Assembly (NCBI RefSeq): GCF_056712565.1
Contig: NZ_CM160072.1
Length of the DNA: 64,000 nucleotides
Reading direction: 5' to 3' (one strand)
This document shows positions 39,401-41,676 of this stretch, one piece after another (position 1 is the stretch's first letter; the number at the start of each line of letters is the position of its first letter). The position numbers are program-made.

Positions 39401-41676
39401 ACGATAACCGCGCATTCAACATGGCTACCTGTTCGTCGTTCATGTCATCAATCCACATACCGTAAATTTCATACACCATCTGCGCAGTTTCATGCCCCAT
39501 CTGGCTGGCTATAAATGCCGGGTTCGCTCCTGCCGTCAACAGCCAGCAGGCAAAAGTATGTCGCGTATGGTACGGATTACGGCGGCGAATACCAGCACGT
39601 TTTACTGCTGCATTCCATCTCGCTCCCAAATAGTCGTAGTGAAATCTGATGGGAAAGCCTTGCTTAGCATGCTGGTGTTGCGCTACCCGTACAGGATGCG
39701 GTAACACAGGAAGAAATTAGAACAGAAACTGTGGCGGACATTGTGCATTCGTTGCCAGGCGGAGAAATAGAACGCTACAACAGGTGCAGAATATAATTTT
39801 TCGCGAGTGCCAGAATAGCGATATTATGCAGTGTTTTTTAGTTTTCTATCAGGGGATATTTTGTGAAACTTTTCGGTGAATAAAATAATTCTCTGTAATA
39901 AATGATGAGTATGGTTGGTGGTTATATTTGCGCATGGAAATATTACATTAGACATGAATGTGTTTCAAATGAAAGAGCCATGACACCCGAATGGAGTTAG
40001 GGATTCATTACGTATCTAATCTAAAGAATAAGAAAAATACTTAATTCATTGTGGGTGGTGATGATATCTTGATATGTGAAAATGGTTCTCTTAATAAGAT
40101 GTAACTAGCTTATTACTTATCCATAGCACAAGAAATGGTCCTGTATCTGCGTTGCCATGAAATAAGATAGGCCTAAATGTAATAAAGAGTTGCATGACAA
40201 AATTACTAAAGTTCACAATAAAAAAGAATTAAGTTTTTTGTTCAGGTATTTTTTTAGTGTATTGTTTTGAAATGTTCTACGCTGCTCTAACCTTCAGTCT
40301 GAAGAGGGCTTGAATCGTGATGTCAGTTCGATTGACATAATGTTATTAATAATGTTTACGTTTGAATGTGAAATATGCTTAACTATGCCTTGATTGTTAA
40401 TCACAGGGACTGACTATGAGAAAAATACTGATGTATTTATGTATTAGCATATGGATTGTTATATCATGCGTGCCTATCATATTAACTAGCGAGTATTTAA
40501 CAGAGGCGAGTATAATGGCATTGATGTTTGGTCATGCCAATGCACTATGTATTGGGGTTTTTATTTCTATTATTTATATAGAATGCTGGAGGTAAATAGT
40601 GTGAACAGCATTAGTTTGATGATTTTATACTGAACTAAAGGGGGGAAGAGGTAACGAAAAAAGACCTCCACCAGGTACGAATCTGAGGCGGGCAGATGGA
40701 GGTCGATATCTACACGATTAAATTGATAAGTAAAAGCCCCATCAGGGATTGATTTTTTCGAGTCTAATTTAAAGTAATTTCAACGATTTGGCAGAATTTC
40801 TTAGAGTTAATGATTTTCAAGTTTTCGATTACCAGGAAAAAGGCTGGGTGCTGATAAAATAGTCATCTGCATTCCTTAAATTGTGTAAGGGTGAAAGGAT
40901 AAAGTTCAATTTAAAGGCGGTGCAATATTAGCACCATCTTATATATGTAATGATTGATTTGCCTCTTTATTCTACTGTTGAGATTATTGTTTTCGAAAAT
41001 TGATTATTATAAGCGCGAAAAGAAATGCTACAGCAAATAAGAGGACGATTGTCGGCGCTGGGGCTCTGTCGAGAAAATATAATAACCATACACCTGATAT
41101 TGTTATTGATATCGTTACGGCGATAAGTAATGCCTTATGAAAGCGATGCGTGATGAGGACAGCAATAGACCCTGGAGCTATTAATAGTATATAGACAGAA
41201 TAATTCCGACTGCTTTTAATGTGGCAAAAATGGTAGGCGATACCATGCAGAGTAAACCGTAATGTAATAATGATATCTGTAATCCGCTGACTTGTGCCTG
41301 TTGATAGTCAAGACAAAAATTCCTGAAAAAACGATACCTATAATGGTATCTTTCTTTATGATGCTATTATCTTTCAGATAGCCAGTTGCAATTGCACAAA
41401 ACAGTCCTACAATAAATGCACCAATTCCCAGCGGCATACCTATAATCCAGGCATAGAACTATGCCAGGAAACATTGCGTGGTTCATTGCATCTCCTATTA
41501 GCGCCCAGTCTTTTAATACCAGAAAAACTGATAATAATGCACAGGGGAACGATATTATAATAGCGATTATCAATGCATAATTCATAAATTTAAATTGTAA
41601 TGATTAGAGGGGAAAATGTCAGCACATTTGCGAAATAAATCAAAAAGCCCGCAGCAATGTGCGGGCGTTAGTGTCA

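What the first reader, a model, noticed from the sequence alone, without database searches (positions are those of the whole stretch)
40416..40595. Unannotated 59-aa two-helix hydrophobic ORF inside the AT-rich island
A short ORF with a plausible RBS (aggga) encodes a peptide predicted to form two TM helices. Its size, hydrophobicity and location in a prophage-scar region fit a small membrane protein or type I toxin-like peptide, but there is no direct evidence.
Basis: inference. Interest (0 to 1): 0.3.

Follow-up and report, generated by a model that had tools for sequence, protein, structure and literature searches.

The report
Orphan prophage small membrane protein gene
The 59-codon reading frame is a real but uncharacterised small membrane-protein gene, from a family found only in E. 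coli/Shigella lambda-like prophages, that survives intact in a collapsed prophage scar; it is not a recognisable type I toxin, although a dead hok toxin gene lies right next to it.

Summary
The ORF is at 40416-40595 (+), as described: ATG start, AGGGA Shine-Dalgarno 6 nt upstream, 59 aa, two predicted helices. An ORF this long is expected by chance in the AT-rich island (P about 0.6). What makes it real is homology.

- **Second subtype.** A 59-aa version, 41-44% identical and aligned without gaps, sits in the nin region of E. coli lambdoid phages and prophages.
- **Coding signal.** Between subtypes, only the + frame looks coding: dN/dS about 0.17, codon-position identity 0.60/0.72/0.50, BLOSUM sum 164 against at most 127 in 20,000 neutral simulations. 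The opposite-strand ORF that phage records annotate ("hornerin") has two stops here.
- **No wider family.** Pfam, NCBIfam, PHROGs, PADLOC, PDB and a scan of 1.84 billion proteins found nothing further.
- **Context.** The window copy lies in a collapsed Rac-like prophage at ttcA, present in 1044 of 5426 complete E. coli genomes and never annotated by RefSeq. About 55 nt downstream is a 5'-truncated hok pseudogene with an in-frame stop.
- **Not supported.** No antisense RNA, sok element or structured leader was found, so the type I toxin reading lacks support.

Expression and function in this scar are unproven. Polymorphism is low in the ORF (P about 0.014), which is only suggestive. An invariant lipobox-like Ser17-Cys18 suggests a rival lipoprotein reading.

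The parts
40416..40595 (+). 59-aa ORF ('type A' of a two-subtype family). Predicted helices are 2-24 and 30-57. Invariant motifs between subtypes are S17-C18-x-P20-I-I-x-T24-x-x-Y27, F38-G39-x-x-N42-A43-L44-x-x-G47-V48-F49, and I55-E56-x-W58-R59-stop.
   Evidence: ORF; 41-44% identical 59-aa homologues, 24 invariant columns; frame-specific conservation, dN/dS 0.17; AF2
40405..40409 (+). Shine-Dalgarno AGGGA, 6 nt before the ATG. The phage subtype has GGGGGA or AGGAGG at the aligned position.
40277..40415 (+). Upstream stretch weakly homologous, with several indels, to the phage subtype's upstream region. That region is the 3' end of a variable upstream nin gene plus about 120 nt of intergenic DNA. 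No sigma-70-like promoter scoring at least 8 of 12 was found on the + strand.
40596..40644 (+). 3' flank homologous to the phage subtype for about 45 nt. It ends at the junction with the hok remnant and has no variable site among 11 strains.
40650..40735 (+). hok (hokD-like) pseudogene. Only the 3' half remains, VTKKDLHQVRI*GGQMEVDIYTIKLISK against HokD VTRKDLCEVRIRTGQTEVAVFTAYEPEE. It has an in-frame TGA, and its promoter, sok/mok leader and transmembrane half are missing.
   Evidence: sok model present in phage L004 4270-4441 but absent from the window
39399..39629 (-). 3' fragment of a tyrosine integrase next to ttcA, marking the left end of the prophage scar.
   Evidence: (UTI89 RefSeq pseudogene, coordinates converted)
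39642..39862 (+). Fragments of the phage replication-region genes ydaW/DUF1627 (39642-39757) and LygF/DUF977 (about 39749-39862). They are colinear with Rac-like phages.

Best explanation
The ORF is a genuine protein-coding gene. It encodes a 59-residue inner-membrane protein built as a helical hairpin, most simply N-in/C-in with a short periplasmic loop.

It belongs to an orphan family with only two known subtypes, confined to Escherichia/Shigella lambdoid (Rac/Qin-like) prophages. There the gene is the last nin-region gene before a hok/sok locus, on the early rightward transcription strand.

The window copy is the only intact reading frame left in a Rac-like prophage at the ttcA attachment site. 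That prophage has collapsed by internal deletions and is fixed in one large E. coli lineage.

**Shown:** the gene's reality, its frame, its family limits, its context, and the predicted two-helix architecture.

**Inferred mechanism:**
- In the phage it is a delayed-early gene read from pR.
- The protein inserts in the inner membrane and self-associates, or docks onto a host membrane protein, through the invariant small-residue face G39-x3-A43-x3-G47 with a mid-membrane Asn42 and the Ser17-Cys18-x-Pro20 kink of helix 1.
- It thereby alters envelope function, for example permeability or exclusion of incoming phage.

Whether the scar copy is still expressed is not known.
For: - **Homologues.** Full-length 59-aa homologues at 40.7-44.1% identity (E 3e-11 to 9e-12) occur in three E. 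coli phages and in phage-like contigs filed as plasmids. The alignment is gapless with 24 invariant columns. IMG/VR yielded 157 relatives, and the 80 loci kept all match residues 1-59 of the query; every copy recovered by the motif scan is an open 59-aa frame.
- **Frame-specific selection between subtypes.** DNA identity is 60.6% without a gap across 180 nt, while the flanks need many indels. Identity by codon position is 0.60/0.72/0.50. The BLOSUM62 sum in frame +1 is 164, against 64 for the next-best frame. Neutral simulations give 56.5 +/- 19 (maximum 127 of 20,000), and only 7.8% keep the frame open. pN is 0.32, pS 0.72, dN/dS about 0.17.
- **Translation signal.** The Shine-Dalgarno is conserved in position.
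- **Architecture.** AF2 gives helices 2-24 and 30-57 with pLDDT 79. Type A carries R2/K3 at the N-terminus and E26/E30 in the loop.
- **Context.** hokD starts 257-269 nt after the stop in 75 of 78 informative type-B loci, and the other 3 carry insertions. The upstream genes are O, DUF1627 and DUF977/LygF, and the downstream genes are rem, DUF968, rusA and Q.
- **The scar keeps the same gene order**.
- **Polymorphism among 11 strains.** The ORF has 1 variable site in 180 bp (0.56 per 100). The adjoining AT-rich scar has 3.2-4.8 per 100. P = 0.014 for the pre-specified ORF window.
Against: - **No expression evidence.** No sigma-70-like promoter was found upstream in either subtype, and no paper holds the sequence.
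- **Intactness here is uninformative.** The scar differs by only a few per cent among strains, so a silent relic would also still be open.
- **The low-polymorphism signal is weak.** 55% of random placements give some 180-bp window with at most 1 variable site. The clearly dead integrase/DUF1627/LygF fragments are equally invariant, at 1.08 per 100.
- **Type B polymorphism does not look like purifying selection.** Within type B the 6 polymorphic sites are all nonsynonymous, 0 synonymous. By my hand calculation this differs from the divergence ratio only at one-sided P about 0.09.
- **Few independent lineages.** Only two exist, so the linkage to hok and the 'invariant' residues rest on a single comparison.
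- **The mechanism is inference from motifs.** Foldseek, PDB and profile searches gave nothing.
Confidence: 0.6

Rival explanations
1. Silent relic. The gene is real in phages, but the copy in this scar is no longer expressed or used. It is simply the one short piece the deletions missed and that has not yet decayed.
For: - No promoter-like site lies upstream on the + strand.
- Everything around it is truncated.
- The scar is young: only a few per cent of sites vary among strains.
- Other dead fragments show equally low polymorphism.
- A W58-stop allele (57 aa) occurs on 11 contigs, and frameshifted versions exist.
- From general knowledge, AT-rich acquired DNA in E. coli is usually H-NS silenced.
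Against: - The ORF and its 49-nt 3' flank carry 1 variable site in 229 bp, while the adjoining AT-rich scar has 3.2-4.8 per 100 bp.
- The start codon, Shine-Dalgarno, stop and all inter-subtype invariant residues are retained.
- Common alleles are conservative missense changes such as M6V, S11N, A31V and I50V.
Confidence: 0.35
2. Lipoprotein precursor. Helix 1 is a signal peptide cleaved by signal peptidase II before Cys18. This leaves a 42-residue N-acylated peptide held by one C-terminal transmembrane helix. Small phage lipoproteins such as T5 Llp and the Cor proteins are known to block receptors.
For: - Both subtypes satisfy the PROSITE PS00013-type rule (K/R in the first 7 residues, uncharged h-region, [AGS]-Cys), with VISC and FASC ending at Cys18. 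About 9% of composition-preserving shuffles of helix 1 do so.
- Ser17-Cys18 is invariant between subtypes and in every natural variant seen.
- Residues 1-17 are less conserved (5 of 17) than residues 18-59 (19 of 42).
Against: - Hydrophobicity continues past the Cys (CVPIILT), as in a full transmembrane helix.
- AF2 models one continuous helix 2-24.
- Position -3 is V or F rather than the usual L.
- The +2 residue (V/M) would direct an acylated N-terminus to the outer membrane, yet only about 14 residues separate it from an inner-membrane helix.
- Pfam reported no lipid-attachment-site match.
Confidence: 0.15
3. Type I toxin. The peptide would be a membrane-damaging toxin kept in check by an antisense RNA.
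For: - It is small, hydrophobic and prophage-borne.
- It always lies beside a bona fide type I system, hok/sok.
- A minus-strand promoter-like site (TTGGCA-17-CATTAT with TG) lies inside the ORF at 40540-40512.
Against: - That antisense site is not conserved in type B, judged by reading the alignment.
- Promoter-like sites are no more frequent than in shuffles (9 against 6.0 +/- 2.2).
- No Rfam RNA was found in the region.
- There is no excess RNA structure (z = +0.51).
- The Shine-Dalgarno is strong and apparently unmasked.
- There is no homology to Hok or any PADLOC, Pfam or NCBIfam toxin.
- Two transmembrane helices are atypical for type I toxins (general knowledge).
Confidence: 0.07
4. There is no gene on this strand. 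Either this is a chance ORF in T-rich DNA, or the real gene is the opposite-strand ORF that phage and plasmid records annotate ('hornerin' or hypothetical, 61-85 aa).
For: - An ORF of this length is expected by chance in the island (P = 0.59).
- Annotators chose the minus strand in three records.
- RefSeq annotates nothing on this strand.
Against: - The minus frame has 2 stops in the window copy and scores a BLOSUM sum of 62 against 164 for the + frame.
- No neutral simulation reached the observed + frame score.
- The minus ORF matches no PHROG family.
Confidence: 0.03

Closest known systems
Small inner-membrane proteins of E. coli and its prophages found by ribosome profiling or tagging (for example the YnaL gene annotated nearby in UTI89; class known from general knowledge)
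   Same: It is under 60 aa, hydrophobic, overlooked by standard annotation, and lies in horizontally acquired DNA.
   Different: It has two helices rather than the usual single one. No translation evidence exists. There is no sequence relationship to any named family.
Hok/Gef type I toxins (hok/sok loci)
   Same: It is a small phage- or plasmid-borne membrane peptide, and it is the physical neighbour of hokD in every informative phage locus.
   Different: There is no homology (hhalign probability 1.4%). It has no mok/sok-type leader. It has two helices and lacks a periplasmic Cys-containing tail. About 880 genomes match only the hok/sok-proximal end of the query without the ORF, and the window has the ORF without a working hok.
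Class II holins / pinholins (for example phage 21 S68; general knowledge)
   Same: It is a small phage protein with two transmembrane helices and small-residue and polar helix faces suited to oligomerisation.
   Different: It is not in the lysis cassette but lies upstream of Q. It has no charged C-terminal tail, since the protein ends ...IECWR. It has no dual-start motif.
Small phage superinfection-exclusion membrane proteins and lipoproteins (T4 Imm, T5 Llp, Cor; general knowledge)
   Same: The size class, membrane location and prophage origin match, and it has a lipobox-like VISC/FASC motif.
   Different: No sequence or fold match was found, and there is no evidence for lysogenic expression or an exclusion phenotype.
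DUF4212 / TIGR03647 small subunit of sodium:solute symporters
   Same: It is a two-helix protein of about 60-80 aa. These were the only weak profile hits, covering residues 4-56.
   Different: Scores are far below the curated cut-offs: 13.9 bits against 30, and 14.5 bits against 26.05. No symporter gene lies nearby. This is most likely compositional similarity.

Membership tests
Type I toxin-antitoxin toxin | Small (under about 60 aa) hydrophobic membrane peptide | tested here: met
   It is 59 aa with GRAVY 1.37 and two predicted helices.
Type I toxin-antitoxin toxin | Cognate antisense or divergent small RNA antitoxin overlapping the toxin mRNA | tested here: not met
   No Rfam match was found at 39700-41100. 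The single minus-strand promoter-like site inside the ORF is not conserved in type B. A novel RNA cannot be excluded without transcript data.
Type I toxin-antitoxin toxin | Structured mRNA leader that masks the ribosome-binding site | tested here: not met
   Folding 40337-40660 gives -63.9 kcal/mol against a shuffle mean of -66.5, z = +0.51.
Type I toxin-antitoxin toxin | Toxicity on expression | not testable with these tools
   This needs induced expression in vivo.
Hok/Gef family (Pfam PF01848) | Sequence match to the Hok profile, with one transmembrane helix plus a periplasmic Cys-containing tail | tested here: not met
   Pfam gave no Hok hit at E up to 10, and hhalign against HokD gave probability 1.4%.
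Holin / pinholin (class II) | Two transmembrane helices | tested here: met
Holin / pinholin (class II) | Encoded in the lysis cassette next to the endolysin, downstream of Q | tested here: not met
   In the phage loci it lies upstream of hokD, rem, DUF968, rusA and Q.
Holin / pinholin (class II) | Highly charged cytoplasmic C-terminal tail | tested here: not met
   The protein ends IE(C/Y)WR directly after helix 2.
Bacterial lipoprotein (signal peptidase II substrate) | Lipobox with invariant Cys after a positively charged n-region and an uncharged h-region | tested here: met
   The PS00013-type rule is met in both subtypes with Cys18. About 9% of helix-1 shuffles also match.
Bacterial lipoprotein (signal peptidase II substrate) | Actual lipidation and cleavage (globomycin sensitivity, palmitate labelling) | not testable with these tools
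   This needs experiment. Hydrophobicity continuing after Cys18 and the continuous AF2 helix 2-24 argue against cleavage.
DUF4212 / TIGR03647 symporter small subunit | Score at or above the curated cut-off | tested here: not met
   Scores were 13.9 bits against 30, and 14.5 bits against 26.05.
Lambdoid nin-region gene (positional class) | Lies between the replication genes and Q, on the pR-transcribed strand | tested here: met
   This holds for the type-B copies in PhiR42_1, vB_EcoS-813R8 and phage-like contigs. The window scar keeps the same order of fragments.

The most novel reading that the evidence does not exclude
The 59-aa protein is a domesticated prophage membrane effector kept by selection in the B2-type E. 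coli lineage after the rest of the Rac-like prophage was deleted. It would be the founding member of a new family of phage two-helix (or lipid-anchored) envelope modifiers that travel with hok/sok. It might act as a superinfection-exclusion or abortive-infection partner, or as a modulator of Hok-type membrane damage.
Probability: 0.12. Interest if true: 0.6.

Novelty: new member of a known kind. Interest (0 to 1): 0.33.

Why it matters
**Annotation.** A conserved small membrane-protein gene is present, as one or other subtype, in a large share of complete E. coli genomes. Type A occurs in 1044 of 5426 genomes and type B in at least 1552 of 5426. RefSeq's pipeline leaves it out (no feature under the match in any listed record), while some phage records annotate a spurious opposite-strand ORF instead. 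Fixing this is a concrete annotation gain.

**Biology.** It is a cheap, testable candidate for a prophage gene retained in the lineage that includes UTI89, ST131 EC958, ATCC 25922 and the E. coli type strain. It also adds a new neighbour to the much-studied hok/sok locus. It does not open a long-standing question, and its function is unknown.

Tried and rejected
- **Family searches found nothing significant.** Pfam, NCBIfam, PHROGs and PADLOC were searched.
- **Word-indexed search of 5.8 billion proteins** found only near-identical type-A sequences.
- **Profile search of 1.84 billion representatives** found only types A and B, their truncated or frameshifted versions, and two repetitive proteins that are spurious multi-repeat matches.
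- **GTDB species representatives** gave one locus, a type-B contig binned as a Collinsella MAG and probably foreign to it.
- **Structure and PDB comparisons were empty.** Foldseek against PDB gave nothing better than E = 7. The PDB sequence profile gave 0 hits. hhalign against HokD gave no relationship.
- **RNA explanations for the conserved block failed.** Rfam found nothing and the fold was not significant.
- **No convincing promoter** was found in either subtype, even at a relaxed 8-of-12 threshold.
- **Literature gave no direct hit.** No paper holds either peptide sequence or UniRef id. A recent Hok survey does not mention an upstream ORF. No ribosome-profiling study of a B2 strain surfaced.
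- **The opposite-strand ORF as the true gene was rejected**.
- **The ORF as an obligate partner of hok was rejected.** Many genomes match only the hok/sok-proximal end of the query, without the ORF.
- **The polymorphism trough is not proof of selection.** It is significant only for the pre-specified window (P = 0.014) and not as a scan statistic (0.55).
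Full report
**1. The observation**

AGGGA lies at 40405-40409, 6 nt before the ATG. 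The surrounding kilobase is AT-rich, with GC 0.31-0.35 against about 0.45-0.55 nearby.

The peptide is very hydrophobic (GRAVY 1.37), with a dip at residues 23-35. AlphaFold2 models helices 2-24 and 30-57 at mean pLDDT 79.

Length alone proves nothing. In Markov simulations of the 1.1-kb island, 59% contain an ORF of at least 59 aa.

**2. Where the window comes from, and the scar**

The stretch is 100% identical to E. coli ATCC 11775, UTI89, S88, APEC O1 and others. It occurs once per genome in 1044 of 5426 complete E. coli genomes, and RefSeq annotates no feature under it in the listed records.

The neighbours are dbpA, ttcA, a 3' integrase fragment, a DUF1627 fragment, a frameshifted metal-ABC-permease pseudogene, uspF and ompN. 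Phage searches add a LygF/DUF977 fragment at about 39749-39862. They also show that the DUF1627 and LygF fragments resemble Rac-like phages. ttcA is the Rac attachment site in K-12 (own knowledge).

About 55 nt after the ORF's stop, 40650-40747 resembles hokD loci at 74-82% identity. Translation gives VTKKDLHQVRI*GGQMEVDIYTIKLISK, against HokD VTRKDLCEVRIRTGQTEVAVFTAYEPEE. This is a hok gene that has lost its 5' half and carries an in-frame stop.

So the island is a lambdoid prophage collapsed by several internal deletions. The fragments keep phage gene order, and the 59-aa ORF is the only intact frame.

**3. The ORF is a real gene family**

tblastn found full-length matches (residues 1-59, 40.7-44.1% identity, E 3e-11 to 9e-12). 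The matches are in Escherichia phages PhiR42_1, vB_EcoS-813R8 and vB_EcoS-640R1, and in phage-like contigs filed as plasmids.

Their translation is also exactly 59 aa: MKNALQFLFVAFWLFASCMPIIFTARYMEKIDVLILMFGHINALFLGVFMAVMCIEYWR. The alignment has no gaps and 24 invariant columns. I call the window form type A and the phage form type B.

The comparison between subtypes favours the + frame:

| Measure | Result |
|---|---|
| DNA identity across 180 nt | 60.6%, gapless; the flanks need many indels |
| Identity at codon positions 1/2/3 | 0.60 / 0.72 / 0.50 |
| BLOSUM62 sum, frame +1 | 164 |
| BLOSUM62 sum, best other frame | 64 |
| Neutral simulations (20,000, same number and spectrum of changes) | mean 56.5, sd 19, maximum 127 |
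| Simulations that keep the frame open | 7.8% |
| Nei-Gojobori | pN 0.32, pS 0.72, dN/dS about 0.17 (dS near saturation) |

The opposite-strand ORF that three records annotate ('hornerin' or hypothetical) has two stops in type A. It also matches no PHROG family. The Shine-Dalgarno is conserved in position: AGGGA in type A, GGGGGA or AGGAGG in type B.

**4. Limits of the family**

- IMG/VR held 157 relatives. All 80 loci kept match residues 1-59 of the query. All but one of them are type B. The motif scan recovered 87 copies in 7 protein variants, each exactly 59 aa and open.
- Type B DNA is in at least 1552 of 5426 complete E. coli genomes, again with no RefSeq feature in the listed records.
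- The exhaustive profile search of 1.84 billion representatives found only types A and B, broken versions of them, and two spurious repeat proteins.
- Among 100,044 species representatives, a single type-B contig turned up.
- Source names are all E. coli or Shigella, as 'hypothetical' or 'membrane protein'.
- Pfam, NCBIfam, PHROGs, PADLOC, PDB sequences and Foldseek gave nothing significant.
- The only weak hits, DUF4212 and TIGR03647, are far below their cut-offs.

**5. Context in phages**

Type B lies in the nin region, downstream of O, DUF1627, DUF977/LygF and variable small genes. It lies upstream of hokD, rem, DUF968, rusA and Q, all on the same strand.

hokD starts 257-269 nt after the ORF's stop in 75 of 78 loci with enough sequence. 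The other three carry IS or flxA-ydfV-relBE insertions. The Rfam sok model matches 90 nt after the stop in L004 (4270-4441, E 6e-25), so the ORF is outside the hok/sok regulatory RNA.

Mosaic breakpoints relative to L004 cluster about 200 nt upstream of the ORF and about 90 nt past hok.

The pair is separable, however. About 880 genomes match only the hok/sok-proximal end of the query, without the ORF. The window has the ORF without a working hok. Because type-B copies are nearly identical, the linkage rests on only two independent lineages.

**6. Is the scar copy still under selection?**

I aligned 11 sequences: the window, EC958, ATCC 25922, MP1, PAR, AHB18, NQ3, AGR6128, SSGw1, UID2404240032 and an IMG/VR contig. 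Variable sites per 100 bp were as follows:

| Region | Variable sites per 100 bp |
|---|---|
| ttcA | 1.06 |
| integrase/DUF1627/LygF fragments | 1.08 |
| left AT-rich scar | 4.83 |
| ORF | 0.56 (one site, M6V) |
| 49-nt 3' flank | 0 |
| hok remnant region | 3.24 |
| ABC permease pseudogene | 3.49 |
| uspF | 1.15 |

With SNPs placed uniformly in the scar, the pre-specified ORF window has at most 1 variable site with P = 0.014. Some such 180-bp window arises in 55% of trials, though, and the dead integrase-side fragments are just as invariant.

I therefore treat this as suggestive, not decisive. Intactness is uninformative at this low divergence.

Protein variants in public data are mostly conservative missense changes. 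Ser17, Cys18 and Pro20 are never altered. A W58-stop allele and a few frameshifted versions exist.

Within type B, all six polymorphic sites are nonsynonymous. This does not look like strong current purifying selection. By my hand calculation it differs from the divergence ratio only at one-sided P about 0.09.

**7. How it probably works**

*Shown:* it is a conserved protein of two hydrophobic helices.

*Read directly from the sequences:*
- Type A carries R2/K3 at the N-terminus and E26/E30 in the loop, which favours N-in/C-in.
- The face G39-x3-A43-x3-G47 is invariant, with Asn42 in mid-helix 2.
- W13, S17-C18-x-P20-I-I-x-T24 and Y27 are invariant in and after helix 1.
- The C-terminus I-E-x-W-R is invariant.

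*Inference from established knowledge of membrane proteins:* small-xxx-small zippers and a buried Asn promote tight helix association. The protein therefore probably oligomerises or docks onto a host membrane protein.

*Inference from position:* in the phage it is a delayed-early gene read from pR. I found no promoter of its own.

The downstream effect, whether on permeability, exclusion or something else, is a guess.

**8. Rivals**

- **Silent relic.** This remains quite possible (confidence 0.35).
- **Lipoprotein precursor.** Both subtypes satisfy the PS00013 lipobox rule at Cys18, against about 9% of helix-1 shuffles. Helix 1 is also the less conserved half. Against this, hydrophobicity continues past the Cys, AF2 draws one continuous helix, and an outer-membrane-sorted lipid anchor only 14 residues from an inner-membrane helix is awkward.
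- **Type I toxin.** No conserved antisense promoter, Rfam RNA or structured leader was found, and there is no homology to Hok.
- **Chance ORF or opposite-strand gene.** This is essentially excluded.

**9. Verdict**

The 'small membrane protein in a prophage scar' reading is supported and sharpened into a defined two-subtype orphan family. The 'type I toxin' reading is not supported, and the real toxin relic is the adjacent hok pseudogene.

This is a new member of a known kind, the small prophage-encoded membrane proteins. Its main value is for annotation, and it is a tractable experimental candidate.

Noticed in passing
Only the 3' half remains, with an in-frame TGA and both conserved Cys positions changed. 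The sok/mok leader and the promoter are deleted.
   Followed up: yes
L002:3907-4158, L003:3907-4164, L004:3973-4158 (minus strand): Phage and plasmid records annotate an ORF on the strand opposite the conserved 59-aa gene, once under the name 'hornerin'. It has two stops in the window copy and matches no PHROG family, so it looks like a mis-annotation.
   Followed up: yes
window 40292-40304: A palindrome CTTCAG-T-CTGAAG lies about 115 nt upstream of the ORF. The phage subtype has TTTAG-A-CTAAA at the aligned place, with one C-G to T-A paired change. One B2 haplogroup carries a SNP at its centre (40299). It may be a protein-binding site or chance.
   Followed up: partly
window 39399-39862 versus 39863-40336 and 40645-41585: Polymorphism among B2-type strains is very uneven within the dead scar. 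The integrase/DUF1627/LygF fragments are as invariant as real genes (1.08 per 100 bp), while the AT-rich parts reach 3.2-4.8 per 100 bp. The cause is unknown.
   Followed up: partly
window 40537-40555 (+): A terminator-like hairpin (8-bp stem, then GGTTTTTATT) lies inside the ORF's coding sequence, at codons 41-47. The phage subtype has a different short hairpin (CCCT-TTTTTT-AGGG) at the same place.
   Followed up: no
L008:1-1882 (IMG/VR contig), junction at window 39298: In one genome, homology to the window stops about 50 nt inside the 5' end of ttcA and different DNA follows. A predicted provirus abuts the old scar, so the ttcA attachment site appears to have been used again.
   Followed up: partly
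window 40984-41585 (-): A frameshifted metal ABC transporter permease pseudogene lies between the prophage scar and uspF. It is annotated as a pseudogene in all RefSeq genomes inspected, and its indels differ between strains (41174, 41453).
   Followed up: no
protein P0006 (NCBI 'tyrosine-type recombinase/integrase, partial', 87 aa): A database protein fuses the integrase fragment's ...EIYGMWI to residues 14-59 of the small protein at a shared W-I. The two lie on opposite strands in the window, so this implies an inversion/deletion or an assembly chimera in that genome.
   Followed up: no
window 36528-36645 (+), 43607-43727 (+), 29566-29661 (-): Rfam gathering-level matches to the sRNAs FnrS, MicC and McaS. 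These are expected core-genome features flanking the island.
   Followed up: no
L004:4223-4251 and window about 40640-40650: A mosaic breakpoint recurs 45-70 nt after the ORF's stop. Many E. coli genomes share only the sequence to the right of it (the hok/sok 5' region). The window's junction with its hok remnant falls at the equivalent place.
   Followed up: partly
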